From NCBI RefSeq assembly GCF_021730395.1, contig NC_069372.1, forward strand, positions 64,348,221 through 64,412,220: a stretch of DNA of 64,000 bases. Reading direction: 5' to 3'. This DNA is from Mercenaria mercenaria (lineage: Eukaryota). Below, in pieces: positions 477-33,163 of the stretch. A model generated the notes under the pieces. The model had not been told where the DNA came from, made no database searches, and worked only from the letters and a program-made list of their open reading frames with translations. A program made the translations under genes and the position numbers. The stretch's first letter is position 1, and each line of letters begins with the position of its first letter.

Positions 477-526
477 GTAGTGTTCATATCTCAGGAAAAT
501 GATGTTTACTGTTCTTTAAAGACCGC

Positions 527-5686: not shown

Positions 5687-6400
5687 TAGCTCACCTGAGC
5701 ACGAAGTGCTTGGGGTGAGCTATTCTGATCGCTCACTGTCTGGCGACCGACTGACATTTTTCCTTCAAAGAACATCTTCTGTGAAACCATGTGGTGGAAG
5801 TTGATGAAACTTGGCCCAGATGTTCCCTGGGTAGTGCTATTTCAAATTTGTTCAAATGGTTCCGTTAGGTTGCACATAGGAGCCGCCAGAGCTAAAAATA
5901 GAACAGTCTTCAAATGACATCTCCCTTAAACCGCTGGTTTGATTTCAAAATAATCTCACACAAATGGTCCTTATGTAACCCTGTCAAGATTGTTCAAATT
6001 ATTATTCATCAAAAAACATGGCCTTCAGGGGGTGTGGACACTTTTCCCAATATGTATATAGTGGAAACTTTAAAAAAAATTCTTGTATGAAACTGCTGGC
6101 CAAATTTTGAAATAATTTCACACAAATGGTCCTTGTAAGACCCAGTATATTGGAAACTTATGAAATTATTGTCAGAAACATCAGGTCCAATTTTAGAATA
6201 ATTTTACACAAATGTTCCTTGTGAGACCCTTTACGAAGATTGTACAAATAATTCTGTTTCATCAAAAAGCATTGCCACTAGGAAGTGTGGTCACTGTACC
6301 CCTTAGTAATGTAGTGGAAACTTGAAAAAATCTTCACTTGATATGTTGTCATATCACATCATTCCCCAAATGTCTTACCCCACATCTGCCCCGACTCCCA
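5687..6400 (+). mobile_element. Helentron-like non-autonomous element (HINE-like). 5' end is TTAGCTCACCTG…CAAGGTGAGCT; the 3' end is unclear.
   Basis: The 5' terminus is shared with elements at 16398 and 21652. Internal ~150-bp repeats begin around 6040. Confidence 0.5.
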
Positions 6401-6490
6401 CCTCAACACACACACAGTACCTGCCTGTATTTATTTAGTTGAAACTTTTAGCTGTTCAAGCAAGCGACTAAACTGTTTGTCTGTTTGCAG

Positions 6491-6566
6491 TTGTCCTGTG
6501 TGTAGATACTGTCAAACACCTGAAGAAGCAGCAGACAATAGATGTATGAAGTGTGGCTCACAAGAG
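6491..6566 (+). CDS. BRAP: BRAP exon (SCPVCRYCQTPEEAADNRCMKCGSQE).
   Basis: Acceptor tttgcag|T, donor GAG|gttagt. Matches human 'CPVCRYCQTPEPVEENKCFECGVQE'. Confidence 0.9.
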
Positions 6567-6611
6567 GTTAGTATTTTTGTCTTATACATAAAAGATTTAT
6601 TTTTTGCACAA

Positions 6612-8457
6612 TTTTAGCACATCTAAACCAAATATTCTGGGTGAGCAATTAGTTTTGGTAAATGGTCAAGTGGTCCTGGTGTTCACAATTTTACATAATT
6701 ATCTTTTTTTCTGAAATGACTGGTCACCAAACTTGGTCTGTAGCATCCTGGCAAGGTCCTCTCTCAATTTTGTTAAAACGGTTCTACTTACTCGAGGGCC
6801 TGTAAAGGGGCATCATAGCTATAAATAGAACAAACCTTTTAAAGACTTCTCATGAAACACTGGATGGATCTTTGTTAAACCTGGTCTTTAGGGTCATTAT
6901 AAGGTTCTAGAGCTAAATATAGAACTACCTTTAATGGACACTTTCTCATTAAATGCTTGTTGGTTCCTAAGCAAACTTTCAGTATTCAGTAATTATCATT
7001 CAGTATAATCAGTAATTGTCAATATAAAGTCTTCTTCCAAATGCATTCAATAGGGGAGTTTGGTCCCAATTAGGGGCCACTAGAGCTAAAAATAGAATTT
7101 TTTTTTAAACAACTCCTGAACTGCTAGATGAATCTTCATCAGTCTTGTCGTGTAGCATCATTATAAGGTCTTCTCCAAAATTCGTATAAATGGGGACACT
7201 CTGCCTGCATTAGGAGTCACTAGTCTAAGAGCTATTAGTAGAAACACCTTTAAACAACTTCCTCTCATCAGCTGCTTAATGGATTTTCATCAAACTTGGT
7301 CTGTAACATAATTAGGCCTGTGAGGTCCTTTTCCTCTTCCAGCTTTGTTCAGATGGGGTGCTTGGTCCCTTTAAGGGGCCAGTAGAGCCAAAAAATAGAA
7401 ATATCTTTAAAGAGCTTCTTTTCATGAACCGCTGGATGGATCTTAATCAGACTTGGTATTCAGGATCATTATGAGGTTTTCTCCAAAATTGTTCGAATAG
7501 GTATGCTTGGACACTTCAAGGGGCCACTTGAGCTAAAGATATAAACACCTGCAAACGACCTCCTAATGAACCTCTTTTTGGATTTTCATCAAGCTTGGTC
7601 TGTAGCATTATTGTAAGGTCTTCTTTAGAGTTGGCCCCTTTTAGATGCAGCTGGATGTTAAAAATAGAAATACTTACAAACAACTGCTTCTCATGAACCA
7701 TTAGATGGATCTTGATTAAGTTTGCTCTGTAGCATAGTTTTGCTCTTTTAGGGGTTGCCAGAGTCAAAGATAGGAAAACATTTAAACCGCTCCCATTTTC
7801 GTGGCAGCTATAGCTAAAAATAGAAACACTTTTAAATGACTTCATCTCATGAAGCTTTTGATAGATCCACATGAGACTGTGTCATTAGCATCAGTATTAA
7901 GTCTTTCCTCAGATTAGTTCAAATGGGGGCACTCAACTCTTTTTTTAGGGACCAATAGAACTAAAAATAGAATTACCTTTTAACAATTTCTTCTCATGAA
8001 CTGCTTGATGGATTTTTACCAAACTTGGTCTGTAGCATCATTATAAGGGTCTTGTATACATTTGTTCAAATGTGGTTGCTCAGCCGTTAAAAGGGCTGCT
8101 GGATTTGAAAATAGACATACATGTACCTTTGAATGACTTCTTTTCATGATCTGCTTCATGGGTCTTCATCAAACTTGGTTTGTGGCATCATTGTAAAGTC
8201 CTCTTCCAGATTTATTCAGATGGAGGCGCTATGCCCCTTTTAATGGTCGTTTGAGCTAAACATAGAGGACATCCTTTAAATGACTTCTTCTCATGAACTG
8301 CTTGGTAAACTTTCATGAAGCTTGGTTTATAGCCTTATTGTAAGGTTTTAGGGGCCACTTGTTTGTGCCATTTATGATTCAGTGTGTCATACCTATATTC
8401 AAGATGAAACTGTTAAGGGCAGGTGAGCGACTTTGGGCTACTGTGGCCATTTTGTCT
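6612..8457 (+). mobile_element. Helentron-like element carrying ~11 tandem copies of a ~150-165 bp satellite (gggccactagagctaaaaatagaa… unit). 3' end is CAGGTGAGCGA…GGGC…GGCC…TTTTGTC.
   Basis: Degenerate 5' 'ttttagcacatc…ctgggtgagca' and a 3' CAGGTGAGCGA inverted relative to the 5' AGCTCACCTG. The same satellite occurs without flanks at 52060-52520. Confidence 0.55.
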
Positions 8458-8911
8458 TAATTTGCCAAAAGATACAGACATAATTTATTTTCTGTCTGTT
8501 GTAGTTTTTAGCTTTATTGTTTTAAGAAGAAATATTCTAATCATCGAGTTGTTTACATTGGTGTCATACCTTTGTTAAAGTTTTGCCAGCATAATTATGG
8601 CCAAGTTAGATAACTCTTGGTTGAATTTGATTCAAATTATGGCCCGTTTTCAAAATTCAGTGTAAAATTTTGCATGCAACTGTCACGCTGTACATGTCTT
8701 GTTATACTATATGTTTATCATATTTTTTTATTCAGGGTCAGAATAATAAGGTCATGACTCATCTAATTTGATAAACTGGCCATTCTTTAAAATAATTCTT
8801 TTACTGTATATGCTACTCTTAGACATTAAACTGATTGTTTGATCTCTGTCTTATGTTCTTCTTTTTGTTTTGAATAAAATTGTCAGTATGTGTTACTGTT
8901 TATGTTTTCAG

Positions 8912-8979
8912 AGTTTATGGATTTGTCTAATTTGTGGAAACATTGGCTGTGGTCGGTATGTCGGGCTGCATGCGTTCAG
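8912..8979 (+). CDS. BRAP: BRAP exon, UBP-type zinc finger ([22 protein letters not shown]).
   Basis: Acceptor ttttcag|A, donor CAG|gtttgt. Matches human '[22 protein letters not shown]'. Confidence 0.9.
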
Positions 8980-9156
8980 GTTTGTTACAATGTTGTTTTT
9001 TTTGTCTGAAAGATGCTGCAATATCATACCTGAGGGACAAATTTTCCTACATTTTGTGTTTGTATCAATCTATTAAATAAAGTAAATTGCCAAATTTATT
9101 TGATCAAAATTCAAGATTCAAGAAAAATTGTCTGCAAGAAGTGGTTGTTTGGTTTT

Positions 9157-10370
9157 TAGCTCGACTATTCGAAGAATAAGTAGAGCTATCCTACTCACCA
9201 CGGCGTCGGCGTCGGCGTCACACCTTGGTTAAGTTTTCCGTACCAGTCCACATCTTGACAAAGTCTTTTGAGATAAAGCTTTGAAACTTTCAACACTTAT
9301 TTACCATCATCATGGCCAGTTATAGGCAAGAGCACATAACTCCATCAAGGATTTTGGCTGAATTATGGCCCCTTTAGACTTAGAAATCATTGTTAAGTTT
9401 TTCGTACCAGTTCATATTTTGACAAAGTCTTTTGAGATAAAGCTTTGAAACTTTCAACACTTGTTTACCATCACCATGGCCAGTTATAGGTAAGAGTACG
9501 TAACTCCATCAGGGATTTTGGACTGAATTATGGCCCCTTTCGACTTAGAAATCTTGGTTAAGTTTTTCGTACCAGTTCATATTTAGACAAAGTCTTTTGA
9601 GATAAAGCTTTGAAACTTTCAACTCTTGTTTACCATCACCATGTCCAGTTATAGGCAAGAGCACATAACTCCATCGAGGATTTTGGCTGAATTATGGCCC
9701 TTTTTGACTTAGAAATCTGGGTTAATATTTCGTACCAGTTCATATTTTGACAAAGTCTTTTGAGATAAAGCTTTGAAACTTTCAACACTTGTTTACCATC
9801 ACCATGTCCAGTCATAGGCAAGAGAACATAACTCCGTCAAAGATTTTGGCTGAATTATGGCCCCTTTTGACTTAGAAATCTTGGTTAAGTTTTTCGTACC
9901 AGTTCATATTTTTTGTAAAGTGTTTGACATATGGCTTTTAAACTTTTATCACTTGTTTAGTATAATAGTCTCTATCTGTAGGAAAGAGAACATAACTCTG
10001 TCATCTATTTTGGCTGAATTATGGCCCTTTTTGGACTTTGAAATTGGTTCTGTTTTCATACAAGTCCATGTTTTGTCAAAACTATTTGACATATGGCTTT
10101 TAAACTTTGAACACTTGTTTATCATTATGATTTCCATCTGTAGGCAAGAGTACATAACTATTTTGGCTGAATTATGGCCGTTTTTGGACTTTGAAATTGG
10201 CTCATATATTGCCATTTAGTGCAAGACTTATCGAAATCAAAGTAATACAGGAACATTGTTTGTCTAATCTATCTATTTCTTTTGTCTGAATATCCGTGGA
10301 AATATTTTGACCCCATTCTTCAATCAGTTCTTCGAATAGTCAATCACGCTGTCATCAGACAGCTCTTGTT
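9157..10370 (+). mobile_element. Helentron-like element, second family. Asymmetric terminal inverted repeat (TIR) CGACTATTCGAAG / CTTCGAATAGTC; 3' hairpin GCTGTCatcaGACAGC followed by CTTGTT. It carries ~6 tandem ~165-bp units.
   Basis: TIR and hairpin read directly at 9161-9173 and 10330-10370. The tandem units are 'ttttcgtaccagttcatattttgacaaagtcttttgagataaagctttgaaactttcaacac…'. Confidence 0.65.
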
Positions 10371-10655
10371 ATGACAGCAAAATTATATGATATCATAATT
10401 CAGTTAAATACTACTCCGTTAAGCAGCTATGACAATTTAATCAGCTATAAATCACAAAACATGAATAAGGTAATTATATATCAAATTATGAAAAATAGTG
10501 ATGTAAAAAATAACCAGTCCATGGTAATTTAGGGAGTATAAAAAGGTGGAAAGTGGGAGGCAAAGTGCTGTGTTGTAGAGGTTTGAAGCTATGTTGTAAA
10601 TTTGTAGATTATTTCATATTTTTTCTACTTTCATGTGACTGTTCTGTATTTCCAG

Positions 10656-10836
10656 ACATTTTCAAGAGACCCATCATACCTATGCTATGGAGTTAGGTAA
10701 CAATAAAGTGTGGGACTATATTGGTGATAACTATGTACATAGGCTGGTGCAGAATAAATCTGATGGTAAATTGGTGCGAGTTGATGAAGGAGGAAATCCT
10801 GTACAAGATGAAAAAATGGATGCTTTAAATTTAGAG
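10656..10836 (+). CDS. BRAP: BRAP exon, zf-UBP ([61 protein letters not shown]).
   Basis: Acceptor ttccag|A, donor GAG|gtatat. Strong match to human '[32 protein letters not shown]…EEKIDALQLE'. Confidence 0.9.
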
Positions 10837-10974
10837 GTATATAGACTAGTAGTAATTAAATATTTGTAGTAAATAGCATCATCTGCAAAATGTTGAAGCC
10901 CTCAATTCAATATTATTGATTTTTTTCTCTTTTTGAGAAAAAAAAACACACACTTAAATTTCTTCTATCCTACA

Positions 10975-11245
10975 TCACTGCAACAGTAGCCAAGTGGTAG
11001 AGTGCCTTACCAGTGTTGTACCAAAGATGTGAAAAATGGTACAAGTAGCTTCCTTGCTTAGCATTCAGCATTAAGGGGATGGTTTTAGGACCAGTCAGCC
11101 CGGCATCAGTATAATGTGAATGGTGGTGGTATGATATAACATTTCTATGGTATGATACCCAGTGAGGAAGCACTATAAAGTTGGTCATTGTGCTCACTTC
11201 TGCAAGTAAATGTTGAAAAAGATGCTAACCTGAGCACACACACCA
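10975..11245 (+). mobile_element. SINE copy of the same family as 527-870, with a degenerate head.
   Basis: Shared body 'gtgaaaaatggtacaagtagc…gcattcagcattaagg…ccagtcagcccggcatcagtataatgtga…cagtgaggaagcactataaagttggtcattgtgctcact'. Confidence 0.75.
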
Positions 11246-11900
11246 TACACACCCAAATTTTTGCTATGTACATAACAGGGTAGAGATGTATTTCATATTT
11301 CAAAGGATAGTTCAGTGTTTCACTGTTTCACTGTCCAGTTCTTACTGAATTTGATGTTTTATTGATACCTTCTAACTATAAAAACAATCTACAAAAGCCT
11401 GGAGGTGTGGCTCTTAGAAGATATGGTATATTATTAGCGAAATGCACAAATATAAAGAAAAAATAAAGGTAAAGACTGGCACCTTATATGTATGTACATA
11501 TACTGGTACATGTAACTGCTGGGCAGCCGCTTTAATCTACCATACAAGTATGTTAGATTATTTTACATCTTGAATTGTGAATGCTGTTTCATTAACATAA
11601 TGGGTGCCAGTATTTCTGGTAAATTTTCTTAAGGGACTTTAGTTTAAAAGTGTTCTGGTTTAAACTGTAAAAAGTAAATGAGGTTTTAGCATTTGTTTGT
11701 AAGATATAGGTGTAGAAGATTTGTTTTACATTTAAACACTACAGATTTTGTCAGTATTTGTGAAAGTAGTGAAGGATTCCTTTTCGTAATTAAGAAATGT
11801 AATGGTGAATATTTCTTTTGAGTTTTAATGCAATTGACCAAGACTAAATTCATGGAAATGACATAATGAAGGATTTTTTGAAATTATTTTACAATTTCAG

Positions 11901-11990
11901 TACACATATTTGTTGACCAATCAACTTGAATCTCAACGCTTGTATTTTGAAGAAAAGATTGAAGAAGTTGAAAAAACAGTATTGGGAAAG
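11901..11990 (+). CDS. BRAP: BRAP exon (YTYLLTNQLESQRLYFEEKIEEVEKTVLGK).
   Basis: Acceptor tttcag|T, donor AAG|gtaata. Matches human 'YSYLLTSQLESQRIYWENKIVRIEKD'. Confidence 0.85.
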
Positions 11991-14859: not shown

Positions 14860-15575
14860 AAACTGAATATATATTATTTACATAGTTACATTACTGTAGT
14901 GAAAAGTGTGGGAAATATTTACGTCTTCTGTTGAGCTGGAATAGTGGAGTTAGAAAGACAATGCTAGGTTCCTGTGTTAGGATAAGGAATTCTGAACAAT
15001 AATGGGAGAGACAGACTTATCATGTGGTATCATCCTTTACCTGTTGTCCATTGTCCATAGTTTTACATTCTAGAGGTTACAATTTTAGACCAGTCATAAT
15101 GAAACTTTGTCAGACCAGATTAATACTTGGTTATCTAGTGTCAAAAACATTAGATCAGTTCTTAAAAAACTTTGTGAAAATTTTATAATTCCACATTTTC
15201 TACTAAATTTAACATGTATAATCAAAACTAGGTAGATAGGTCAAAACTTGAGCATCTTGAGCCCATGATGGTCCCCAGCAACAAAATTCCTGGATTATAC
15301 AGAACAACCACAGCAGTAATACTTTTAAGGCTTGGCCTTCATCAGTTTATTATGTTCTGGAAAAAAATCGGCATACAGTTAAGTTGCATTACTTATTTAC
15401 CCAAACATTTTACAAAATATTTTTATTTTGCTATTGGACAATTATTATGCTCCCTTGGCAAAGAGAAGGTATGCTGTTTTGCTCAAATTCTAAAGGCTGG
15501 TCTGGTCAATAGACTGTTTGGTCTTGCATTCTTGAACCTATAGTGGTCAAACTTCATAGGACGAATGCCAATGGT

Positions 15576-15822: not shown

Positions 15823-16397
15823 TAAAGAATGCCTGTGGTTAGTACTAAACTCGTATATTTGGGGTCAGTAGGTCAGTACAGTGAACTTGATAATGAAATC
15901 AATACTGATTAATAAGTAAAGAACACTTTCTTTCTGCCCTCAAATTTTTAAGGATGCCTTTGGCCAACAGATGGTCCGAATGGTTCTGTAGGTCAGTAGG
16001 TCAAAGGGAAATACTACATTGGCCTAGAGTCTGAAAATGGTTTCCCAAAAATAAATGGAGACTGATTGGTCGTTTGATTGCTAATGTTCTTATGATGATT
16101 TCCTGTGGTCAGTAGGTAACCCTTGTTCATTAGTTAATTTGTGTCAAGGTCACAGTGACCATGATATTCAAAATGGTTTCTGATCAATGTCTGGAACACT
16201 TAGTGTTGTCATAATTTCGAAGGTTATCACAGCAATGAAAATAACATACCCAGCTTCCACTGACAGACCAATTCTTGTTTGTATAAAACATTTTAAAGAT
16301 AATTTTCTTTTTATAGCCCTGATGGTGTTGTGTTTAATTTTTCTACCAATCACCTCATTGATGTTTTTACCTGATTGTCATTTACACCATTTTATTT

Positions 16398-17657
16398 TTA
16401 GCTCACCTGTCACATAGTGACAAGGTGAGCTTTTGTGATCACCTGTCGTCCGTCGTCAGTCTGTGCGTGCGTACGTCAACAATTTCTTGTTTGCACGATA
16501 GTGGTTTTATTTATGATTTTATTTTAACCAAACTTGTTCACAACTTGTATCACCATAAGATCTCGATTCTTTTCTTGAACTGGCCAGATCCCATTATGGG
16601 TTCCAGAGTTATGGCCCCTGAAAGGGCCAAAATTAGCTATTTTGACCTTGTCTGCACAATAGCAGCTTTATTTATGATTTGATTTTTACCAAACTTGCGT
16701 ACAACTTGTATCACCATAATATCTTGGTTCCTTTCTGGAACTGGCCAGATTCCTTTATGGGTTCCAGAGTAATGGCCCCTGAAAGGCCCAAAAATAGCTA
16801 TTTTGACCTTGTCTGCACAATAGCAGCTTTATTTATGATTTGATTTTTACCAAACTTGCACACAACATGTATCACCATAAGATCTTGGTTCCTTTCTGGA
16901 ACTGGCAAGATTCCATCATGGGTTCCAGAGTTATGGCCCCTTAAAGATCCGAAATTGGCTATTTTGGCTTTTGCAGCCATATAGAGACTTCATTTATGGT
17001 TTTATTTGATACAAACTTCCAAAATATCTTCAACAACAATAAATTTTTGATTCCATGACAAATCAGATCCAGTCGTAGGTTTCAGAGTTATTTTATACCT
17101 GATTACCTCCCCTGATTGTAATAAATATGGATTTATATCAGTAAATATTTACAGGACTTATTTGAAATTTCATTATTGTTATTAGTTGGACTAAGACAAT
17201 CAGGGTAGATACAATGTACTGATTTTTTGTCAAATTACCTCCCTTTATTTCAAATTAAAATGGGTATATCTCCGTAACTAATGAAGATACTGATCTGAAA
17301 TTTCATTTATGTCAACAGATTTATTTGGCAGATCTTTCTTTTGTTCACTTATAATTTCTTTTTTTAATTACTTCACATTTACTTTACTATAAATAGCTTA
17401 TTTTTAGTAACTTTTTTATTATTGGCCATAGGGAAAAACGGAGACCACTTTTCTGTGGTACAACATGGATGGTACCTCCAATTTTTAGGTATATTTTGAC
17501 ATATCTATACCTTGTAAGAATTTTTTTTCTTTTTGGTTAAATTTCTTCCCTTTGTTGTTCCTGTCCTTTGGACTTAGATATTTTTTCTGAGGACCTTCTT
17601 GTCCTCAAGGGCAGTGATAACAGGTGAGCGATATAGGGCCATCATGGCCCTCTTGTT
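16398..17657 (+). mobile_element. Helentron-like element. 5' is TTAGCTCACCTG…CAAGGTGAGCT; 3' is CAGGTGAGCGATATAGGGCCatcatGGCCCTCTTGTT. Internal ~170-bp tandem units × 3.5 at 16500-17000.
   Basis: Asymmetric terminal inverted repeats (AGCTCACCTG vs CAGGTGAGCG), a 3' GC hairpin and a CTTGTT terminus, all read directly. Confidence 0.7.
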
Positions 17658-18806
17658 AATACAGTATATGTCAAGAAAATGTAAGATGGGAATGTTAGTC
17701 ATACATAATTATTAGGTAATTATCTTATATTTCAGTTCTCACATAGAAATTATGACATGTTTATAAATTCATCCCCATTTTGAATGAGAATAAATGCAAT
17801 AATGTCATTACATTCAGTTGATTTAAACCAATGATTCTACAAAGTAATGATTATGATTTTTTTTTCCGTGCATGTTTTTAGCTTGTCTGAATTATGAAAA
17901 AGATCTACAAGGTATTGTTGTCAATTGATTGTTGGCATTGGTTACAATTTTTGTTTAGGCCCATTTTTACTCAAAACTTTATAAGCTATAGCTTTGAAAC
18001 TTTGAACATATGTTTATCATCATTAGATGAGTAAGTAGGCCCAGAATTATGGCTCCTTATTTGCTTAGAAAATCATAAATTCTTGGATATGTCCACTTTG
18101 CATGATTACTTTAAGAATAATAGCTTTGAAACTGTGTACCCTTGTTTTATTGTCATAAGATGAGTAAGCAGCTCAAGAACCATAATTTTTTTTTCATTTT
18201 TTAAGAATTATGGATCTTTTTAACTTTAAAAAGAAAATCAATATTTCTTTGTTGAATACTATAGCTTTGAAACTTTATACATTTGTACATTGTTTTTGTT
18301 ATCAGAAGGCCAAGAACTGTAACTGTTTTCTTGCATATTGTCTACATAGAACACTTACAGATGAGTGTTGGCATCTGAAGGCAGTTCACTTATTAGCATG
18401 TTGTTCTGACATTACTGAGGTCCCTTGTCTGTAACTAACTTTAGCTGTGACTATGAGTTCGTAATTTTAAGTCAGTGTACATCTTGCACACCATAGTATT
18501 TGTGTCACACAGTTGTCATATATGAACCATGGATTAGCATTGTGAGCAGTTAAAGAAATATGGTACCCCTGTGGGATTATAATTTTCATAATTATGTTCA
18601 TCCTCTCAAGAATATTTGAGACACTGCTCTATATTGTTGATGTATTGATGTGAATATGTATTTGTTATGTTAAAATGCTCTTTATATTTTAATTTATCTA
18701 TGTTGTATTTATAATACAAGATTTGTTTCTTAATGAAAAATAAATGATATTTATGAAACTTTTTCTTATAATAATTGCTATATTGTCGGCATTATAATAA
18801 TGTCTC

Positions 18807-18837
18807 CCACACCACTGTGGTGGGAGACATATTGATT
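18807..18837. repeat. Perfect 31-bp palindrome atgtctcccacaccactgtggtgggagacat (two abutting 'GGGAGACAT' termini).
   Basis: Direct reading. The same 'TGGGAGACAT' motif recurs at 19190, 19455, 20845 and 160. Confidence 0.8.
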
Positions 18838-19504
18838 TACTCTTGTCTGTCTGTGTGTGTGTCTGTCCATCTATCTGTCACGAATCTTGTCTGTGCTCCA
18901 AGTCAAACAGTTCTCATTCGATCTTCACCAAACTTGAACAAAATGTGTTTGCCAATAAGTCCTCGGCCAAGTTCGATAACTAGCCAAATCGGCCTTGGCA
19001 CTTCGGAATCATGGCCCTTGAATTACCAAAAATGCTGATGCCAGTGATACAGGTCTTGGTGCATGGTTGACTCAGATACATAATGAAAGGCCATTTTTTC
19101 CAAAACTTACTCCAAAACTATCAAAGGTATATTTTTTGTGAGTAAACAGTATATAAAGACAGACTTACTATTCAGATGATTAGGCAGTTGTGGGAGACAT
19201 GCGCTTTTCTCAAAAGCAGCTCTAGTTGAGAGAAAGACTACTCTTTAACATGTTTACATGAAAAGATTGGTGTAAGTTTGGTGTAAACATAACAACATCA
19301 TTATTGTCTGAATATTTATGACTTTTAGCAAACAAAACAACAAAATTTGAGGGAGAGATGTAAAACCTGGAAACTTTACCACTAATGCCTGAAAATAGCA
19401 CAAGAGACCATGAAATATTTTTTACATCTCTCCCCCCTTCCCATACACACACACTGGGGAGACATATTGTTTTTGGCAGATTTTATGGAGTAGACAGCTC
19501 TTTT

Positions 19505-20790
19505 GTTTTTGGGGACGCTCCATCAAAGGTCAAGGTCACAGGGACCTGAACATGGAAAACCATCCATTTCTGATCACTAACTTTTGAAACACTTGATCTA
19601 GAACGTTGAAACTTCATTGGATGATTGGACATGCAAAAGAGATGACCCCTATTGATATAGGGGTTACTCTGTGAAAGGTCAAGGTCACAGGGGCCTGAAC
19701 ATGGAAAACCATTTCCAATAAATAACTTGAGAACTACTTGGCCCAGAATGTTGAATCTTCATAGGATGAGTGGATATGCAGAGTAGATGGCCTCTATTGA
19801 TTTTGGGGTCACATTGTGAAAGGTCAAGGTCACAGCAGCCAGAACATAGAAATCCATTTCAGTAACTTGAGAACCATTTGATCTAGAACCTACAAACTTC
19901 ATAGAGTGATAGTACTTACAGAGTAAATGACCCCTATTGTTTTTGGTCATTCCATCAAAGGCCAAGGTCACAAGAGCCATCTCTCGGTAACACTTCGTTT
20001 TTGATCAATAACTGTAGAACCATTTGATCTAGAGCCTCAAACTTCATAGGGTGATAGGTGATAGTTTAATGTTTGGGTTTACTAGATCAAAGGTCAAGGT
20101 GACAGGGACCTGAACATGGAAAACCGTTTCTGGTCAATAACTTTAGAATTCTTAACCCAGAATTTAGTTTATACATAATTTATTTTAGGTCGATTGTGAA
20201 GGAAGTTCTACACTTGATATTAATCACTCTCGACACCTCGTTCCTGATGGAATCCATCGCCACGAGGGTATGAGAGAAAATGCCAGTTTCCCTTTTAATG
20301 CTGAGCGCCAAGCAAGGGAGCTACTGATACCATTTTCACGTCTTTTGTATGACGCGACCGGGGATCGAACCCACAACCTCCCGCACTCGAAGCGGACGCT
20401 CTACCACTAGGCTATCGGGGCGGTTTAAATATATAACTTGACCTAGAATATTGAAACTTCATAGGATGATTGGACATGTAGAGTAGATGACTCTTATTGA
20501 TTTTTGGGTCACATAATCAAAGGTCAAGGTCAACAGGACCAGAACATAGAAAACGGTTTCCGATCAGTAACTTCAGAACCATTTGACTCAGAACCTTAAA
20601 ACTTGATAGTACTTACAGAGTAGATGACCCTTATTGTTTTTGGGGTCACTTGAGCTATGGTCAAGGTCGCAGGGGTCTGAACATGGAAAACTGTTTCCGA
20701 TCAATAACTTGAGAACTGCTTGACCCAGACTGTTGAAACTTCGTAGAATGATTGGACATACCTATTGCAGCCAACCTTCATTGTCTCTTT
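19505..20790 (+). repeat. Tandem array of ~150-bp units × ~9 (…atcaaaggtcaaggtcacagggacctgaacatggaaaacc…cttgatctagaac.ttgaaacttcatagg.tgattggacatg.a.agtagatgacccctattg…). It is interrupted by a SINE at 20190-20425.
   Basis: Direct reading. Each unit carries AAAGGTCAAGGTCA. Confidence 0.9.
20190..20425 (-). mobile_element. tRNA-derived SINE (same family as 527-870) inserted into the 150-bp array.
   Basis: The reverse complement of 20341-20420 folds as a tRNA-like head with anticodon loop TTCGAGT and a degraded acceptor stem. The body matches the 600-700 region. Confidence 0.75.
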
Positions 20791-21651
20791 GACTTTCGCT
20801 CATGTCACCTATTGATTTCTTGCCTATTACGACTATGCATTGGGGGAGACATGCGTTTTTCTACAGAAGTATCTTCTAGTTTTAAATGGGATTAAATTTG
20901 GGGAATACCTCATCTTAAACCTCTGTTCTTTCACATACAAAGACATTGTACCCTCGATATAGAACTAGTAACATGCTGAAGAATAGTATCATATGACGGT
21001 TTTCTTTTTGCCTCGGTATGGACGAATTTATATGTAAGCATTATTCAGCAAAAATAATAACAGATGCGTTTGGAATATATTCATACCCACTTGTTTTAAT
21101 AGATAGTGACAGACTTGGCTTTGTAAAACATGGGGTATCAGCTTAGTAGATCTACTTGTGAAACATTTCAACTACAATAAAATGTCCTCTAACTAAAATA
21201 GCGAACAAACTTACAGTAAGAATTAAACGTGACGTCATTTCGTTCATTTGAGTTTCGATGTCTCATCCAGAAATTTAATGGTACCCAATCCATGGTGGCT
21301 GCTTTTATATAGACAAAGAAATAAGAGAGCCACCCTCCACTTCTCACAGGACATCGATGGAAGTAGGTCATAAATATACCGAGTTCTTCCGTCGGTCACA
21401 ATGTCCTGACAAGCCAGATGGTGTCAAACGTGCCGGACGAAATTTCCCCGGTATCATATAATAGAAGTGTTTGGTATATGATACAGAAGAAAAATTTCGC
21501 CTTAAACCTCAAAGGAATCGTTTGAAAGAAGACGACCTGCTGTAGATGTGTCAACATGACGGCATGCAGAGAAAAACCCTGAATGCTTAAGGTGAGTTGT
21601 GGGAGAGGAGGGCTTAGTGGCTACAACCGCCCTGTAAGAGCGATTTGCTTA

Positions 21652-23097
21652 TTAGCTCACCAGAGCACAAAGTGCTCAAGGTGAGCTATTGCATATGTAA
21701 CCGGTCATTGTCCGGCGTCCGTCGTGTGTCGTGCGTCGTCTGTCAACATTTGCCTTGTGAACACTCTAGAGGCCACATTTGTGACCCACTCTTTATGAAA
21801 CGTGGTCAGTATGTTAGTCTTGATTATCTTTAGGTCAGCTTCGAAACTGGGTCATGTGGGGTCAAAAACTAGGTCAATAGGCCAGATCAAAGGAAAAGCT
21901 TGTGAACACTCTAGAGGCCACAGTTGTGACCCAATATTTATGAAAGTTGGTCAGAATATTTGCCTTGATGATTTCTAGGTCAAGATATAATCTGGTTTAT
22001 GTGAGGTCAAAAACTAGGTCACCCGGTCAAATCAAAGGAAAATATTATGAACACTTTAGAGGCCACAATAATGACTCAATCTTTATGAAACTTGGTCAGA
22101 ATGTTTGTCAGAATGTTTGTCTTGATGATTTCTGAGACTGGGTTATGTCGGGTCAAAAACTAGGGTACTAGGCCATATCAAAGGAAAATCTTGTCAACAC
22201 TCTATAGACCACAATTTAAGTTTGAAGCTCATGCGAATTAGTCAGAATGTTTAAAGATCTATAGGTCACGTTCGAATCTGGGTCATGTGGGGTCAAAAAC
22301 TAGGTCACCCGGTCAAATCAAAGGAAAAGCTTGTGAACAATTTTGAGGCCAAAGTTGTAACACAATCTTTATGAAACTTGGCCTGAATGTTTAACTTGAT
22401 GATTTCTAGGTCAAGTGTGGTATTTAAAACTAGGTGTGAATAGGTGGAACAACTACACATAACTATGTTTGGTCAGTTAGACCGAAGGATCAAAGGAAAA
22501 AGCTGCAGATGAAACAAATCTAGAGGCCATAATTGTGCACTCAATCTTTTTAAAATTTGGTCAGAATGTTTGTCTTAATGATCTCTAGGCCAGGTTAGAA
22601 TCTGGGTTATGTGTAGTTAAAAACTAGGTCAGTATACCAGATCAAAGGAAAAGCTTGTCAACACTAAAGAGGCCACAGTTGTGACCCAATATTTATGAAA
22701 CTTTGTCAGAATGTTTGCCTTTATGATCTATAGGTCAATTTTGAAACTGGGTCATATGGGGTTAAAAACTAGGTCAGTAGGCCAGATCAAAGGGAAAACT
22801 TGTGAACATTCTACAGGCCAAAGTTGTGATTCAGTTTTTATGAAACGTGGTCAGAATGTTTGTCTTGATGATCTCTAGGTACAGTTTTAATCTGGGTCAT
22901 TTTGGGTTAAAAACTAGGTCACATGGTCAAATCAAAGGAAAAAGTTGTGAACACTCTAAAGGCAACAGTTGTGACTCAATCTTTATGAAACTTGGTCAGA
23001 ATGCTTGTCTTGATGATCTCTAAGTTAAAATCGAAACTGGGTCAGTAGGCCAGATCAACTCTGGTGAGCGATATAGGGCCTTCATGGCCCTTTTGTT
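21652..23097 (+). mobile_element. Helentron-like element with ~10 tandem ~125-150-bp units (…ggtcaaaaactaggtca…gatcaaaggaaaagcttgtgaacactctagaggccaca…). 3' is CTGGTGAGCGATATAGGGCCttcatGGCCCTTTTGTT.
   Basis: Same terminal architecture as the element at 16398-17657. Confidence 0.7.
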
Positions 23098-29000: not shown

Positions 29001-29617
29001 TTTATACATAAATCGTTTGTTTACATACAAATGTACTTATATTCTCCTTCACTTTTCTGCATATATGTAAACATCTCATTGTGACTTACATTAAACTCTT
29101 TCAAAGAAAAATGCAAATCTAGAAAATTAATACAAAACATTTTTGGCCTTTGCTTAGTAAAACAATTAGCTATAGACAAGTGCACTTTAATTTAGTATCG
29201 AGGAACCTGTTTATCTCTATCGCGGAGACGCAACATATTAAAAAGCTCTTTTGCCCTGTTTTTAACACTTATCAAAACATACATCAAACGAAACACATAA
29301 AATAAAGTCAATTGTTTGGCAAATGATATTCATAAAATAAAGCACCGGGCGCACAAATAGTTAACTGTCTATAAACAGCCAAGTTAATCTATATGAAGTA
29401 ATGAAACGACGAGCTAAAACTGTAATGGAAATTATACCGTACAGTTATTTCAGGCGAGAAAAGCCCAAACTTATGACTTCAGAAATAGCATTCATTTGCA
29501 GAAGATATCAAATTCAGGCACGTCCTTCGTGTTTCAAGAATATTCTGTAGAATTTACATCTCGTTAAAATACCCAATGGGACTATTAACAAAGATATCTG
29601 AACATGTAACATGATTA

Positions 29618-29907
29618 CGGTGCCCCTAAAGTTACATGTTACACACTTTTTTTCCACTTAGGTAATGTGAGACTTTTTTTTATTTCAACTATTTCGTTTA
29701 AACGAAATGATTTCGTTTGAACGAAATAACTATTTCGTTTAAACGAAATCATTTCGTTTAAACGAAATAAGTTTAAACGAAATAGTTATTTCGTTAAAAC
29801 GAAATCATTTCGTTTAAACGAAATAAAAAAGTCTCACATTACCTAAGTGGAAAAAAGTGTGTAACATGTCACTTTAGGGGCAGGCACGAAAGAAGTCTAT
29901 TCCAGTG
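29618..29907. mobile_element. Foldback/palindromic insertion present only in copy 1 of the duplication. Long inverted arms (gtgcccctaaagttacatgttacacacttttttt ccacttaggtaatgtgagac…) enclose repeats of the self-palindrome atttcgtttaaacgaaat.
   Basis: The inverted repeat is read directly. The paralogous site at ~36860 lacks the insert. Confidence 0.7.
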
Positions 29908-31337
29908 GCTGCTTAAAATGGCAAAATCCGCAAACCGTTTTTCCGGTTACAGTAATTTTTCTTTTCAGTAACGTTTCAATTTTTATGACAGTTTTTAGTA
30001 TTTCCTGAAAAACGTATTACCAGTTCAATTTTAAAAGGTGAAATAATATAATTTTCCCAAAAGAAGCAAAACTTTCTGAGCATTTCTCCTGCATATTTAT
30101 CAAGGGGCAAGTGCCAACATAGTGTAATTTATGTCGTCAAATAGTTTTATACGGTAACACGATAAAAACGAAAATGTTGCAGGCTCGGATTGATTGAGCC
30201 TGTTCATGGACGGTAGTAGAAATTGATGCTACTGTCCATGCCCTTTAGCCCTTGGTTGAGAATGACTCAACATTTACACATGCTACAAGTACAAAAGATA
30301 ATAGGTAAAGGTAGATTTCTCGGAAGCACAGAGCACCAAAAAACACAGCCTCAGAGCCACGTGTTTCCAAAGTAGGCCCACAACAAAAAGAAGCTGTAAT
30401 GGAAAAATATTACAGACGGGTTGCTTCAAAAATGTAACAAGTACATATAAATTTATGCCAAGTATAGATAGAGGGGGAGAAAGTGGCAATGGGTAAAAAG
30501 GGGAAAGGGGTTGGGGTTGGGGGAGGAAATAGAAGGGGAAAGTAGAAAAAAGATGAATATACAAAGTGAATGCTACATTCCTTAATTAAGGTTACACTAC
30601 AACGTAAACCACAATAGCGCACACATTCATGTATCAAAGATAAACACACAGCGACACCCAACTAACTAACATAGAAAAACGAACAGGTAAGATACAAGAC
30701 CACAGTAGGGCACCGCTTTAGAAAAACAATTTAGAGACATCCGCATATGTGTTCGTACGGCAGTGCACATGGAACCTTCAATGATACACTACACATGGAA
30801 CCTTCAATGATACACTAGAGTGTAAATCAATGAAAAGCGGAACAGTTTAAATAATAGGCATACATTTGTAACTAAACAAACTGGAGTTTAGAAAGGGGGT
30901 CAGAGGTTATGGAGCCTGCATATCATATGAACTGCCAAAAGACAAAATTAAAAAGCAGGCACCATTTCCAAGGGGTAATTATACAATACCCAAAGCTATG
31001 AAAGCGAGGGTATTGAACCACCCAGGCCGTAGTGTTAAAACTGAGAAACTGAACTACCAATAACATGACATAAATGTCGTGCTGAACAATTTTTTTCATT
31101 GAATATCTTTCGGCAAACTGGCAGCAAACGGAAATCTTTTTTTTTCAACTGTTATGTCAAATTGCATCCCAAATATGCAAGTGTACTTTCACTTTTGAAA
31201 CAAATGCGAACGCTTACCTACGAATATCTGTAGCAGTAGATGCGTCTTGTTCGAATTCAAATTTACGTGTTTTATTGTCTAAACGGTCAGATATATTAAT
31301 ATTCTACAAAAGATGAAATATTTTCAACATTGTTACT

Positions 31338-33163
31338 TTTTAGCATAGAGTTTTTGTGATCGCTCGATGTCCGTCGTCTCTCTTCTGTCTGTTTGTCGTC
31401 TGTCTGTCAACATTTAGCTTGTGTATGCTATAGAGGCTGTACTTTTCAATAGATCTTTATGCAAAATTTGGTCAGAACAATTACCTTGATAAAATCTAGG
31501 CCAAGATCGAAAATGGGTCATCTGGAGTAAAAAAACTAGGTCACTAGGTCAAATCAAAGAAAAACCTTGTGTATGCGATAGAGACTGTATTTTTCAATTG
31601 ATCTTCATGAATTTTGGTCAAATGATAACCTTGATAAAATCTAGGCCAGCTTTAAAAATGGGCTATCGGGAGTCAAAAACTAGGTCACTAGGTCAAATAA
31701 AAGAAAAACCTTGTGTATGCGATAGAGACTGACTGTATTTTTCAATTGATCTTCATGAATTTTGGTCAAAATGATTGTCTTGATGAAATCTAGGTCAAGT
31801 TTGAATATGGGTTATCTCGGGTTAAAAACTAAGTCACTAGGTCATATCAAGGAAAAAGCTTGTTTATACAATAGGGACTTCATTTTACACCAAATTTTAA
31901 TGAAATTTGATCAGAATGTTTGTCTGGATGAAATCTAGGTCAAGTTGGAATGTGGATCATCTGGGGTCAAATACTAGGTCAAAAGGTCAAATTAAAGAAG
32001 AATTCTGTGTATGCAATAGGGGCTGCATTTTACATTAGATATTCATAAAATTTAGTCGGAATAATTGCTCTGATGAAATCTAGGAGGAGTTCGAATATGG
32101 GTTATCTGGGATTAAAAACTAGGTCACTAGGTCAAATCAAAGAAAAAACTTGTGTATGCGATAGGGGCTGCGTTTTACACAGGATATTCATGAAATTGAT
32201 CAGAATGTTTGTGTGAATGAACTCAAGGTTGAGTTCGAATGTAGGTCATCTAAGGTCAAAAACTAGGTCATCCGGTCAAATTAAAAAAAAACTTGTGTAC
32301 GCAAAAGGGGCTGCATTTTACACTGGATATTCATAGAATTTAATAAGAATGATTGCCTTGACGAAAACTAGGTCAGTTTCAAATATGGGTTATCTGGGGT
32401 CAAAAACTAGGTCGCTAGGACAAATCAAAGAAAAACATTGTGTATGCGATAGAGGCTGTATTTCTCAATTGAGGTTCATGAAATTTAGTCAGAATAATTG
32501 CCTTGGTACAATCGAGGTCAGGTTTGAATATTGATTATCTGGGGTCAAAAAATAGGTCACTAGGTCAAATTAAAGAAAAACCTTGTGTAAGCAACATGTG
32601 CTGCATTTTACACCCGATCTTCATGAAATTTGATCACAATATTTGTCTTGATATCTTCTAGGTCAGATTTGAATCTGGGTCATGTTGGGTCATAAACTAG
32701 GTCATCTAGTCAAATCAAAGGAAAAGCTTGATAACACTTAAGAGGCCACATGTATGACCATATCTTCATGAAATTTGATCAAAATGTTTATGTTGATGTT
32801 TAAAGTCTTGGATGATTTCGAATGTGGGTCTCATGGGGCCAACAACTAGGTCACTAGATCAAATCAAAGGAAAAGCTTGTATACATTCTAGAGGTCACTT
32901 CTTTCATTCTTCCTGAAACTTTGTCAGAATGTTTTTTTTTTATGGAATCTTGGACAAGCACGAATCTGGGTCATGTGCGGTCAGAAACTAAGTCACTAGG
33001 TCAGATCACAGAAAGTACTTGTTTACCCTCAATATTTTTGATCCAATCTTAATGAAAATTGGTTAGGATATTTGTTTCTGTGAAGTCACTAGGTCAAACA
33101 TGTTTACACTGTTATGGTGTGTTTCTCAGGTGCGCGACCTAGGGCCAACTTGGCCCTCTTGTT
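31338..33163 (+). mobile_element. Helentron-like element with its 5' hairpin deleted, carrying ~12 tandem ~130-bp units (…ctaggtcactaggtcaaatcaaagaaaaaccttgtgtatgcgatagaggctg…). 3' is CAGGTGCGCGACCTAGGGCCaacttGGCCCTCTTGTT.
   Basis: 3' terminus and internal array read directly. There is no counterpart in duplication copy 2, so it was inserted after the duplication or deleted from copy 2. Confidence 0.65.

What the first reader, a model, noticed from the sequence alone, without database searches (positions are those of the whole stretch)
5687..33163. Family of Helentron-like elements that each carry a different internal satellite array
At least six elements share this architecture (5687, 6612, 9157, 16398, 21652, 31338). 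Each has a short asymmetric terminal inverted repeat (5' TTAGCTCACCTG… vs 3' CAGGTGAGCGA; a second family uses CGACTATTCGAAG/CTTCGAATAGTC), a GC-rich 3' hairpin (GGGCC-N5-GGCCC or GCTGTC-N4-GACAGC) and a …CTTGTT terminus. This matches what is described for Helentrons / HINEs in bivalves, which are known to carry satDNA (for example Cg170/BIV160-type). Here each copy encloses a different ~125-170-bp tandem array, so these elements look like vehicles that seed and disperse satellite arrays. One BRAP exon (6491-6566) sits in the ~200-bp gap between two of them.
Basis: partly seen in the sequence, partly recalled or inferred. Interest (0 to 1): 0.5.

Follow-up and report, generated by a model that had tools for sequence, protein, structure and literature searches.

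The report
Satellite-carrying Helentron-type transposon copies (HINEs)
The region holds about a dozen decayed copies of a known kind of non-coding rolling-circle transposon (HINE), each carrying a short satellite-like repeat array; this genome component is already described in bivalves, although every copy here points the same way.

Summary
Four complete elements (C, D, E, F), one degenerate element (B) and one 3'-truncated element (A) share it. The order is a T-run, a 5' hairpin (subterminal inverted repeat plus its complement), a GTCY-type microsatellite, a 145-165-bp tandem array, a 3' inverted repeat, a 6-7-bp GC hairpin, and CTTGTT.

This matches the published definition of HINEs (non-autonomous Helentrons) and the Cg_HINE/pearl/DTC84 elements of bivalves feature by feature. 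There is no target-site duplication.

The claim that each copy carries a different array is only partly right. A and B share one monomer type and E and F share another. D is distantly related to C and to E/F.

The same 3' terminus occurs in more than 120 metagenome host contigs and in the BRAP locus of another species. There it carries the same monomer families, always in the same orientation, and terminus sub-variants track array type.

No Rep/helicase partner was found.

Verdict: interpretation supported; ordinary, new members of a known kind.

One unexplained extra: all 13 HINE pieces in the window are co-oriented, and neighbouring pieces in the other loci are also mostly co-oriented.

The parts
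5682..6340 (+). Element A (terminal family 1), 3'-truncated or decayed. T-run 5682-5687; 5' subTIR GCTCACCTG 5689-5697; IR GGGGTGAGC 5712-5720; about 1.5 B-type monomers 5760-5946; then a second internal repeat of about 86-250 bp. No recognisable 3' module. Lies in a BRAP intron.
   Evidence: The 5' hairpin folds at -12.6 kcal/mol, z -4.1.
6612..8458 (+). Element B (family 1), old but full length. Degenerate 5' module (TTTTAGCACATC...GGGTGAGC 6639-6646); about 11 degenerate monomers of about 150 bp at 6717-8365; 3' subTIR CAGGTGAGCGA 8420-8430; decayed hairpin; TTTTGT end. Starts 46 bp after the donor site of the BRAP exon at 6489-6566.
   Evidence: The hairpin no longer folds.
9153..10370 (+). 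Element C (terminal family 2), complete. T-run 9153-9157; subTIR CGACTATTCGAAG 9162-9174 with adjacent IR; (GGCGTC)n-like short repeat; 164-bp x about 6 array 9224-10196; 3' subTIR CTTCGAATAGTCA 10330-10342; hairpin GCTGTC-ATCA-GACAGC 10348-10363; TCTTGTT end.
   Evidence: Hairpins z -2.3 (3') and -3.1 (5'). No TSD.
16395..17657 (+). Element D (family 1), complete. T-run 16395-16399; subTIR GCTCACCTG 16401-16409; IR 16422-16430; GTCY microsatellite about 16441-16480; 161-bp x3 array 16486-16968 plus a degenerate monomer to 17091; 3' subTIR CAGGTGAGC 17621-17629; hairpin 17635-17651; CTCTTGTT end at 17657.
   Evidence: 5' hairpin z -6.1, 3' hairpin z -2.6.
17875..18300 (+). Piece C'. TTTTTAGCTTGTC start followed by about 3 degenerate C-type monomers (17949-18147 and beyond). 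No 3' module.
18800..19227 (+). Element H (terminal family 3), complete and short. 5' subTIR ATGTCTCCCAC 18800-18810 with IR GTGGGAGACAT 18820-18830; (GTCT/GTGT)n microsatellite about 18843-18880; one monomer 18911-19033; 3' subTIR GTGGGAGACAT 19190-19200; palindrome GCTTTT-CTC-AAAAGC 19203-19217; CTCTAGTT end.
   Evidence: 5' hairpin z -3.9. The same LF + microsatellite + monomer combination is seen in L034.
19418..20881 (+). Element G (family 3). T-run 19418-23; 5' ATCTCTCCCC / IR GGGGAGACAT 19456-65; 145-bp 'AAAGGTCAAGGTCAC' monomers 19525-20166 and 20436-20762; 3' GGGGGAGACAT 20842-52; palindrome AGAAG-TAT-CTTCT; CTAGTT end. The array is interrupted by a minus-strand tRNA-Ser(CGA)-like SINE (about 20167-20435).
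21652..23097 (+). Element E (family 1), complete. subTIR GCTCACCAGAG 21655-21665; IR 21678-21686; (GTCC/GTCG)n microsatellite about 21700-21745; 145-bp x about 9 array 21754-23046; 3' subTIR CTCTGGTGAGC 23059-23069 (11/11 complementary); hairpin AGGGCC-N5-GGCCCT 23075-23091; TTTGTT end.
   Evidence: 5' hairpin z -6.8, 3' hairpin z -3.3. No TSD.
31337..33163 (+). Element F (family 1). The 5' hairpin is internally deleted (TTTTTAGCATAGAG...). Microsatellite about 31366-31410; 145-bp x about 11 array 31416-33098, homologous to E's; 3' subTIR CAGGTGCGC 33127-33135; hairpin 33141-33157; CTCTTGTT end.
   Evidence: 3' hairpin z -3.1.
1..189 (+). Piece G0. The 3' part of a family-3 element, cut by the window edge: a G-type monomer at 2-76, GGGGAGACATGCG at 151, palindrome GCTTTT..AAAAGC, CTAGTT end.
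15065..15155 (+). Piece E'. An isolated E-type monomer fragment just downstream of the last BRAP exon.
   Evidence: E 4.6e-5.
16143..16201 (+). Piece G''. An isolated G-type monomer fragment.
   Evidence: E 2.7e-4.
52046..52506 (+). Piece B'.
6489..6566 (+). BRAP coding exon (SCPVCRYCQTPEEAADNRCMKCGSQE) lying between A and B. This is context, not part of an element. Other BRAP exons lie at 5282-5362, 8897-8983, 10654-10854, about 11889-11990, 13081-13167, 13777-13923 and 14683-14832, all on +.
   Evidence: Pfam zf-UBP/RING homologues were returned.

Best explanation
These are non-autonomous Helentron-type rolling-circle transposons (HINEs) of the pearl/DTC84/Cg_HINE kind.

Each copy is a cassette. 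The left module is a T-run, a subTIR, its complement (forming a hairpin) and a GTCY microsatellite. The right module is a subTIR, a short GC hairpin and CTTGTT or CTAGTT. Between them sits a short array of 145-165-bp monomers in a fixed orientation.

The elements encode nothing. They must be moved in trans by a Helentron Rep/helicase(/endonuclease) encoded elsewhere, which would recognise the terminal hairpin and inverted-repeat modules and insert one strand into a T-run without duplicating the target. Arrays ride along and change copy number by slippage or unequal exchange. The elements therefore scatter short satellite-like arrays through genes and intergenic DNA.

Shown here:
- the architecture and its recurrence in three terminal families;
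- the absence of a TSD;
- the fixed array orientation;
- conservation of the termini across species;
- the pairing of terminus sub-variants with array types.

Inferred from the literature:
- the rolling-circle mechanism;
- trans-mobilisation;
- a role in seeding satellites.

The copies in the window are old (66-89% identity within or between arrays) and there is no sign of current activity.
For: Architecture and excess over chance.

Hairpins: the 5' subTIR+IR folds with z -3.1 to -6.8, and the 3' hairpins of C, D, E and F with z -2.3 to -3.3.

Boundaries: no TSD, T-runs at the 5' boundary, TT at the 3' end.

Coding capacity: none inside the elements.

Recurrence elsewhere:
- The base after ...TTGTT is T in 88 of 120.
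- 26 contigs hold complete elements of 417-2198 bp.
- 69 of 120 carry monomers of the window/L001 families upstream of the 3' end, and all 410 hits lie in the same orientation as the terminus.
- Terminus sub-variants track array type: GTTCC|CCTCT goes with E/F in 6 of 7, and GACCY|CCTTT with B/L1a in 18 of 23.

Other species: an independent family-1 element with 167-bp monomers sits in a BRAP intron of another species (L001:13557-15064).

Empty sites: L104 (filled) against L064:1-93 (94% identity) shows insertion inside a T-run with nothing duplicated. L075 against L088 shows the same at 77% identity.

Literature match:
- HINE definition (PMC4067079).
- Cg_HINE substructures, GTCY microsatellites, TT insertion, no TSD, and one array type per flank pair (PMC7492417).
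- DTC84/pearl ACGG/ACGA microsatellite, which is the reverse complement of the CCGT/TCGT seen here, and the 'AA' ends, which are the TT seen here (PMC3879986).

Monomer homology to a C. gigas CL1 (Cg170/HindIII-type) monomer: L001 monomers z=17.4, window B monomers z=3.4.
Against: - No autonomous Helentron (Rep/helicase) was found. The window has none; its only endonuclease ORF belongs to a LINE with a reverse transcriptase. The long ORFs of the 120 related contigs have none either.
- Termini could not be compared with Repbase/Dfam or with the Cg_HINE consensus sequences. The figures are not held and supplementary Table S2 is illegible.
- The empty sites come from relatives in other species, not from the window's own copies.
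- The outer 5' stem is invariant in the sampled copies, so there is no formal covariation support for it.
- The 3' hairpin ends 6 nt from the terminus, slightly closer than the 8-35 nt given for mite HINEs.
Confidence: 0.87

Rival explanations
1. Cut-and-paste MITEs of a TIR (DDE) transposon family that make a 2-bp TT/AA target-site duplication. This is the older reading of pearl and DTC84.
For: There are short inverted repeats near both ends, and T (=A) dinucleotides at both boundaries. DTC84 and pearl were first described this way (PMC3879986).
Against: The ends are asymmetric. The 3' repeat lies 37-41 nt inside the element and is followed by a hairpin and a fixed CTTGTT tail. The number of boundary T's varies. 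At the 94% empty/filled pair, the joined flanks of the filled site are one base shorter than the empty site, not longer. These families were re-classified as Helentron derivatives (PMC4067079, PMC7492417).
Confidence: 0.07
2. These are ordinary dispersed satellite or minisatellite arrays, spread by segmental duplication or unequal exchange. The flanking motifs are incidental and not transposon ends.
For: The arrays are old and heterogeneous. Some pieces (B', E', G'', C') have no termini.
Against: The same left and right modules flank unrelated arrays in the window. They recur in more than 120 contigs of other species, with arrays always in one orientation. The flanking host sequence differs at every copy.
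Confidence: 0.03
3. These are composite units made by 3' read-through or end-bypass of one element into the next. On this view the cluster D-C'-H-G-E (16.4-23.1 kb) is one or two large chimeric Helentron-type elements, not five insertions.
For: Five co-oriented elements lie within 6.7 kb with spacers of 200-770 bp. Compound Helitrons built from the ends of neighbouring copies are documented (PMC4224331). Head-to-tail Helitrons are also known.
Against: Each unit has its own complete left and right modules, from different terminal families. No second copy of the whole block was seen in the window or in the loci.
Confidence: 0.15

Closest known systems
Cg_HINE elements of Crassostrea gigas (Vojvoda Zeljko et al. 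2020, PMC7492417; annotated in Repbase as Helitron-N*_CGi)
   Same: The module order is the same: 5' subTIR + IR + GTCY/GTCC/GTCK microsatellite, then 140-180-bp satDNA-like array, then 3' subTIR + palindrome. Other shared points: subTIRs of 11-12 bp, arrays mostly 2-10 monomers in fixed orientation, T-rich/TT insertion, no TSD, copies in gene introns, and each array type tied to its own flank variant. B/L1a-type monomers are homologous to CL1 (Cg170/HindIII-type) monomers.
   Different: The host species is different and unidentified. The terminal sequences could not be compared with the Cg_HINE consensus. The oyster paper reports both insertion orientations genome-wide, whereas all 13 pieces here are co-oriented.
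pearl (CvA/CvE/CvG, Crassostrea virginica, Anadara), DTC84 (Donax trunculus), MgE (Mytilus galloprovincialis)
   Same: The modular structure is the same. The DTC84/CvG microsatellite ACGG/ACGA is the reverse complement of the CCGT/TCGT tract in family 1. Their 'AA' ends are the TT ends seen here. Core repeats are about 160 bp. DTC84 has a palindrome (TTGTCCGGACAA) at each core-repeat junction, and the D monomers here start CTTGTCTGCACAA.
   Different: These were originally described in the opposite orientation and as MITEs with a TSD. I made no sequence-level comparison of the flanks.
DINE-1/INE-1 of Drosophila and the HINE-Mo families of the mite Metaseiulus (Thomas et al. 2014, PMC4067079)
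   Same: All the defining features are shared: subTIRs, an IR beside the 5' subTIR (DINE-1 type), a microsatellite, optional central tandem repeats, a 3' stem-loop, TT insertion and variable terminal T's.
   Different: There is no sequence similarity. For DINE-1 and the mite HINEs an autonomous Helentron partner with matching ends has been identified, but none was identified here.
Canonical Helitrons (5' TC ... CTRR 3', insertion between A and T)
   Same: They share a 3' hairpin close to the end, the absence of a TSD, a presumed HUH Rep/helicase rolling-circle mechanism, and head-to-tail arrangements.
   Different: The elements here have subterminal inverted repeats, T-run targets and CTTGTT/CTAGTT ends. 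These are Helentron features, not Helitron features.

Membership tests
HINE (non-autonomous Helentron) | Non-coding interspersed repeat with defined boundaries | tested here: met
   The only ORFs inside the elements are two spurious ones within the arrays, with no Pfam hit. Boundaries are shared between copies and with more than 120 contigs elsewhere.
HINE (non-autonomous Helentron) | Subterminal inverted repeats of about 11-15 bp; the 5' one a few nt from the end, the 3' one about 38-60 nt from the 3' end | tested here: met
   E 11/11, H 11/11, C 12/13, G 10/11, D 9/9. The 5' subTIR follows a 2-6-nt T-run plus A. The 3' subTIR starts 37-41 nt from the end in C, D, E, F, H and G.
HINE (non-autonomous Helentron) | Inverted repeat (IR) next to the 5' subTIR (DINE-1 type), or a palindromic subTIR | tested here: met
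   5' hairpins fold at -6.8 to -15 kcal/mol, z -3.1 to -6.8, in A, C, D, E and H. The same 8-bp outer stem occurs in 43 distinct copies, with inner parts of variable sequence and length. The outer stem is invariant, so covariation cannot be measured.
HINE (non-autonomous Helentron) | Short palindrome (stem-loop) near the 3' end | tested here: met
   Stems of 6-7 bp in C, D, E and F (z -2.3 to -3.3). AT-richer palindromes in H and G do not differ from shuffles. The palindrome of B has decayed.
HINE (non-autonomous Helentron) | Microsatellite and/or central tandem repeats, in a fixed orientation relative to the flanks | tested here: met
   GTCY-type tracts follow the 5' hairpin in D, E, F, H (and a degenerate one in A). 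Arrays of 145-165 bp. All 410 monomer hits lie in the orientation of the terminus in 69 related contigs.
HINE (non-autonomous Helentron) | Insertion into T-rich sites (TT) without target-site duplication | tested here: met
   Window copies show T-runs at the 5' boundary, TT at the 3' end, and no flank repeat longer than chance. Relatives: T follows the terminus in 88/120, and empty/filled pairs L064/L104 (94%) and L088/L075 (77%) show no duplication. Empty sites for the window's own copies were not available.
HINE (non-autonomous Helentron) | Termini shared with an autonomous Helentron encoding Rep/helicase (and usually an endonuclease) | tested here: inconclusive
   There is no Rep/helicase ORF in the window. 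The APE-like ORF at 57897-59477 is followed by an RT and belongs to a LINE. Six of the 17 ORFs of at least 200 aa in the 120 related contigs were scanned and gave no Rep/helicase hit. The contigs are short (12 kb at most), so absence means little.
HINE (non-autonomous Helentron) | Sequence match to curated Helentron/Helitron-N consensus sequences (Repbase/Dfam) | not testable with these tools
   No TE library is available here. The Cg_HINE flank consensus sequences are in figures, or in an illegible supplementary table.
Cg170/HindIII (BIV160-like) satellite monomer family | Monomer sequence homology to Cg170-type repeats | tested here: inconclusive
   A C. gigas CL1 monomer taken from the supplement of PMC7492417 aligns to the L001 monomers with z=17.4 (0/300 shuffles). 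It aligns to the window's B consensus only with z=3.4 (5/300). B against L001 monomers gives z=8. C, D, E, F and G monomers show little or no similarity (C z=3.5; the others below 1). BIV160 itself was not available.
TIR-type MITE (cut-and-paste) | Symmetric terminal inverted repeats and a target-site duplication of fixed length | tested here: not met
   The 3' repeat is subterminal and is followed by a hairpin and tail. There is no TSD.

The most novel reading that the evidence does not exclude
HINE integration may be strand-specific at a regional scale, meaning that copies over tens of kilobases all point the same way. The evidence is as follows.
- All 13 pieces, from three terminal families and spread over 52 kb, are on the + strand.
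- In the BRAP locus of another species, 7 of 7 monomer clusters are on the + strand.
- In unrelated host contigs, neighbouring monomer clusters co-orient with the anchor element in 21 of 24 cases.
- The supply of T-runs on the two strands is nearly equal, so target supply does not explain the bias.

This would fit insertion coupled to the direction of transcription or of replication-fork movement, as shown for bacterial HUH single-strand transposons. Alternatively it could reflect orientation-specific homing next to resident copies. I found no report of such a bias. The oyster and Drosophila papers state only that both orientations occur.
Probability: 0.2. Interest if true: 0.65.

Novelty: new member of a known kind. 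Interest (0 to 1): 0.25.

Why it matters
The finding itself adds little. It was already established in oysters, clams, mussels and Drosophila that Helentron-derived non-autonomous elements carry and scatter satellite-like arrays.

Its practical value is for annotation. About 11 kb of the 27-kb stretch is HINE sequence, including copies that abut BRAP exons.

It also shows that the same terminal cassette is shared across several host species, with homologous arrays and with terminus variants tied to array types.

The possibly useful lead is the uniform orientation of all copies. If that holds genome-wide, it would bear on how Helentron-type rolling-circle transposons choose the target strand, which has not been worked out experimentally.

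Tried and rejected
- **Literature search for the terminus.** A full-text search for TTAGCTCACCTG gave one irrelevant hit.
- **Published Cg_HINE sequences.** The subTIR/IR sequences in supplementary Table S2 are illegible and the figures are not held. Only array sequences were usable; I took a CL1 monomer from them.
- **Species identification through BRAP.** The best full-length homologue is 74% identical and unnamed. Partial hits of 82-92% lead to an ENA contig (L001) and a JGI contig (L123), whose exons are only about 78-80% identical at the DNA level. The source species therefore stays unidentified. Two further BRAP loci have BRAP as a single 173-276-aa exon with closely spaced genes and were not examined further.
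- **Orthologous empty sites.** The introns of L001 are too diverged from the window to align.
- **Autonomous partner.** None in the window or in the related contigs.
- **Covariation in the 5' hairpin.** The outer stem is invariant, so the test is uninformative.
- **Target supply as the cause of co-orientation.** Rejected: there are 592 runs of four or more T against 517 of A outside the elements.
- **A and B as one element enclosing the exon.** Rejected: B has its own, degenerate, 5' module.
- **A minus-strand '3' end' at 18983-18999**. Rejected as a chance palindrome inside a plus-strand monomer.
- **Monomers as copies of the element's 3' terminus.** They start with CTTGT, like the CTTGTT tail. 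I noted this but did not test it beyond inspection.
- **Pfam scan of concatenated ORFs.** I prepared this to find genes downstream of BRAP but did not run it.

Full report
**What is there**

The stretch 5.6-33.2 kb contains tandem arrays with periods of 145-164 bp at 9224-10159, 16486-16966, 19525-20729, 21754-23044 and 31418-32880. A further, more degenerate array of about 150 bp at 6717-8365 was missed by TRF but is clear from direct-repeat and profile searches.

Reading the flanks and aligning them shows one recurring layout. It runs: a run of T, then AGC, then a 9-13-bp motif, then its reverse complement a few bases on, then a tract of GTCC/GTCG/GTCT-like tetranucleotides, then the array. 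After the array comes a second copy of the reverse complement of the 5' motif, a 6-7-bp GC-rich hairpin, and CTTGTT.

The motifs are far more frequent than chance:
- GGCC-N3-7-GGCCCTYTTGTT occurs 3 times against 0 in 100 shuffles.
- A hairpin followed by CTTGTT occurs 4 times on the + strand against 0.88 expected on both strands.
- GGGGAGACATRYK occurs 5 times against 0.18 expected.

As single strands the 5' modules fold into strong hairpins (z -3.1 to -6.8). The 3' hairpins of C, D, E and F also fold (z -2.3 to -3.3). That of B no longer does.

**Inventory**

By terminal motif there are three families.
- Family 1 (GCTCACCWG / CWGGTGAGC; hairpin AGGGCC..GGCCCT; CTTGTT end): A 5682-6340 (no 3' end), B 6612-8458 (degenerate), D 16395-17657, E 21652-23097, and F 31337-33163 (5' hairpin deleted).
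- Family 2 (CGACTATTCGAAG; hairpin GCTGTC..GACAGC): C 9153-10370, and perhaps the fragment C' 17875-18300.

G is interrupted by a tRNA-Ser-like SINE on the minus strand. Isolated monomer fragments lie at 15065-15155, 16143-16201 and 52046-52506.

The end of D at 17657 and all of family 3 are additions.

**Are the arrays all different?**

No. Profile searches show that A carries B-type monomers. E and F monomers are homologous (reciprocal nhmmer E-values of 1e-12 to 1e-24; 66-72% identity over more than 1 kb; consensus z=33). D is distantly but significantly related to F (z 7.4), E (4.2) and C (4.5). G is unrelated.

So the six listed elements carry four array types, not six, and some of those are remotely related.

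In C, D, E and F the first monomer starts with CTTG(T/G) directly after the left module.

**Context**

A tblastn with a human BRAP sequence recalled from memory locates eight BRAP exons on the + strand between 5282 and 14832. A, B and C are intronic and in sense orientation. D to F lie downstream of the gene.

The window has no Rep/helicase ORF. The endonuclease-like ORF at 57897-59477 is followed by a reverse transcriptase and belongs to a LINE.

**Target sites**

None of the seven elements with both ends has a flank duplication beyond what short T/A-rich flanks give by chance. All start after 2-6 T and end in TT.

**Evidence from elsewhere**

A BRAP homologue search led to a 2.8-Mb ENA contig from another species (L001; exons about 80% identical). 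One of its BRAP introns holds an independent family-1 element at 13557-15064. Its left module is TTTTTAGCTCACCTGAGCACAAAGTGCTCATGGTGA..., it has seven 167-bp monomers, and its right module is CAGGTGAGCAATCCAGGGCTATCATGGCCCTCTTGTT.

They are host DNA from several samples and at most about 80% identical to the window.

In these contigs:
- T follows the terminus in 88 of 120.
- 26 hold complete elements of 0.4-2.2 kb.
- 69 carry monomers of the window or L001 families upstream of the terminus, and all 410 profile hits lie in the terminus orientation.
- Sub-variants of the right module go with particular array types.

Joining the flanks of complete elements and searching the same contigs gave two empty-site candidates. 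L064:1-93 matches the joined flanks of the L104 element at 94%, with the junction inside a T-run and no extra bases. L088 matches L075 at 77% with the same picture.

Six of the 17 longest ORFs in these contigs were scanned and none is a Rep/helicase.

**Comparison with what is known**

Thomas et al. 2014 define HINEs by the following: subTIRs of 12-15 bp lying 2-4 nt from the 5' end and 38-60 nt from the 3' end; a 5-10-bp 3' palindrome; an IR next to the 5' subTIR (in DINE-1); microsatellites or tandem repeats; insertion at TT with variable terminal T's; and no TSD.

Vojvoda Zeljko et al. 2020 describe 11 Cg_HINE elements in the Pacific oyster with exactly this layout. They report GTCY/GTCC/GTCK microsatellites, 140-180-bp satellite-like central repeats in fixed orientation, one array type per flank pair, related flanks carrying unrelated arrays, intronic copies, and a link to the Cg170/HindIII satellite.

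DTC84 and pearl have the same modules, described in the opposite orientation. Their ACGG/ACGA microsatellite and 'AA' ends are the reverse complement of what is seen here.

A CL1 (Cg170-type) monomer from the oyster supplement is clearly homologous to the L001 monomers (z 17.4) and weakly to the window's B monomers (z 3.4). B and L001 monomers are related (z 8).

Two membership points remain open: a partner element, and a direct match to curated consensus sequences.

**Mechanism**

Shown here:
- conserved terminal modules able to form hairpins;
- insertion into T-runs without duplication;
- arrays that travel with the termini in one orientation.

Inferred from the Helitron/Helentron literature:
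- a Rep/helicase supplied in trans nicks at the ends;
- one strand is transferred, with the 3' hairpin acting as the stop signal;
- arrays vary by slippage or unequal exchange.

The window's copies are old (identity within arrays 71-89%), so there is no evidence of present activity.

**An unexplained extra**

Every HINE piece in the window, 13 in all from three terminal families and spread over 52 kb, is on the + strand (binomial p 2.4e-4). Other repeat families in the window occur in both orientations.

T-runs and A-runs outside the elements are nearly equally common (592 against 517), so target supply is not the cause.

In L001, all seven clusters of monomer hits are on the BRAP sense strand.

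In the metagenome contigs, oriented by the anchor terminus, other monomer clusters are 21 plus against 3 minus (p 2.8e-4). By my tally from the list, the count is 13 against 1 at distances above 500 bp. Left-module motifs downstream of the anchor are 14 plus against 2 minus.

Head-to-tail Helitrons are known. The oyster and Drosophila papers I read say only that both orientations occur.

Possible causes are nesting or homing next to resident copies, composite elements made by read-through, sense-strand bias in transcription units, or coupling to replication direction. I could not separate these with one window and short contigs.

**Verdict**

The elements are new members of a well-described kind, and interest is low. 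The uniform orientation is worth a genome-wide check.

Noticed in passing
window 1-52506 (13 pieces); L001; L003-L122: All HINE pieces in the window are on the + strand (13 of 13). The same co-orientation holds in the BRAP locus of another species (7 of 7 monomer clusters). Neighbouring clusters in metagenome contigs are 21 plus against 3 minus. T-run and A-run supply is about equal, so target supply does not explain it.
   Followed up: partly
It has subTIR ATGTCTCCCAC/GTGGGAGACAT, palindrome GCTTTT..AAAAGC and a CTAGTT end. The same left module, microsatellite and monomer occur in contig L034 of another species.
   Followed up: yes
window 515-787 (+), 20291-20429 (-), 11019-11208, 42169-42279: A tRNA-Ser(CGA)-like sequence with conserved flanks is present in several copies (ARAGORN calls two of them tRNA genes). 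It is probably a tRNA-derived SINE. One copy is inserted, in minus orientation, into the array of element G.
   Followed up: partly
window 6566/6612; L001 about 13535/13557: HINE 5' ends sit very close to splice donors: 46 bp after the BRAP exon in the window, and about 24 bp after a BRAP exon in L001. In sense orientation the left module begins with a T-run followed by AG, which resembles a splice acceptor.
   Followed up: no
window 9224, 16486, 21754, 31418 (array starts): In C, D, E and F the first monomer begins with CTTG(T/G) directly after the left module, echoing the CTTGTT at the element's 3' end. D monomers start CTTGTCTGCACAA, which is close to the junction palindrome TTGTCCGGACAA reported for DTC84 core repeats.
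   Followed up: no
window 21754-23046 and 31416-33098 against L043, L086, L094, L095, L112: E/F-type monomers are as similar, or more similar, between species (74-80% to the metagenome contigs) than between elements E and F within the window (66-72%).
   Followed up: no
window 23712-26077 and 1132-3026: There are two long minisatellites: 45 bp x 52 (GC 47%, starting about 600 bp after element E) and 50 bp x 37. The 3' part of the second (2630-2790) belongs to a dispersed repeat of about 150 bp, with copies in both orientations at 13422-13593, 15647-15829, 42397-42559 and 36294-36357.
   Followed up: no
window 56580-61331 (+): A non-LTR retrotransposon with ORF1, an endonuclease-like ORF (Exo_endo_phos, E 3.6e-4, below the Pfam cut-off) and a reverse transcriptase (RVT_1, E 1.7e-37).
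   Followed up: yes
window 43625-44782 (-): Repeated minus-strand ORF fragments (for example ...SMDPDQTARKRRLVWIHAGRKPTMLVFSWHGSY) occur in two or three nearby copies. They look like another dispersed repeat.
   Followed up: no
window 29687-29826: A cluster of short palindromic units (ATTTCGTTTAAACGAAAT) is repeated about seven times. The flanking stretches 29179-29615 and 29884-30154 have 70-73% copies at 36387-37140.
   Followed up: no
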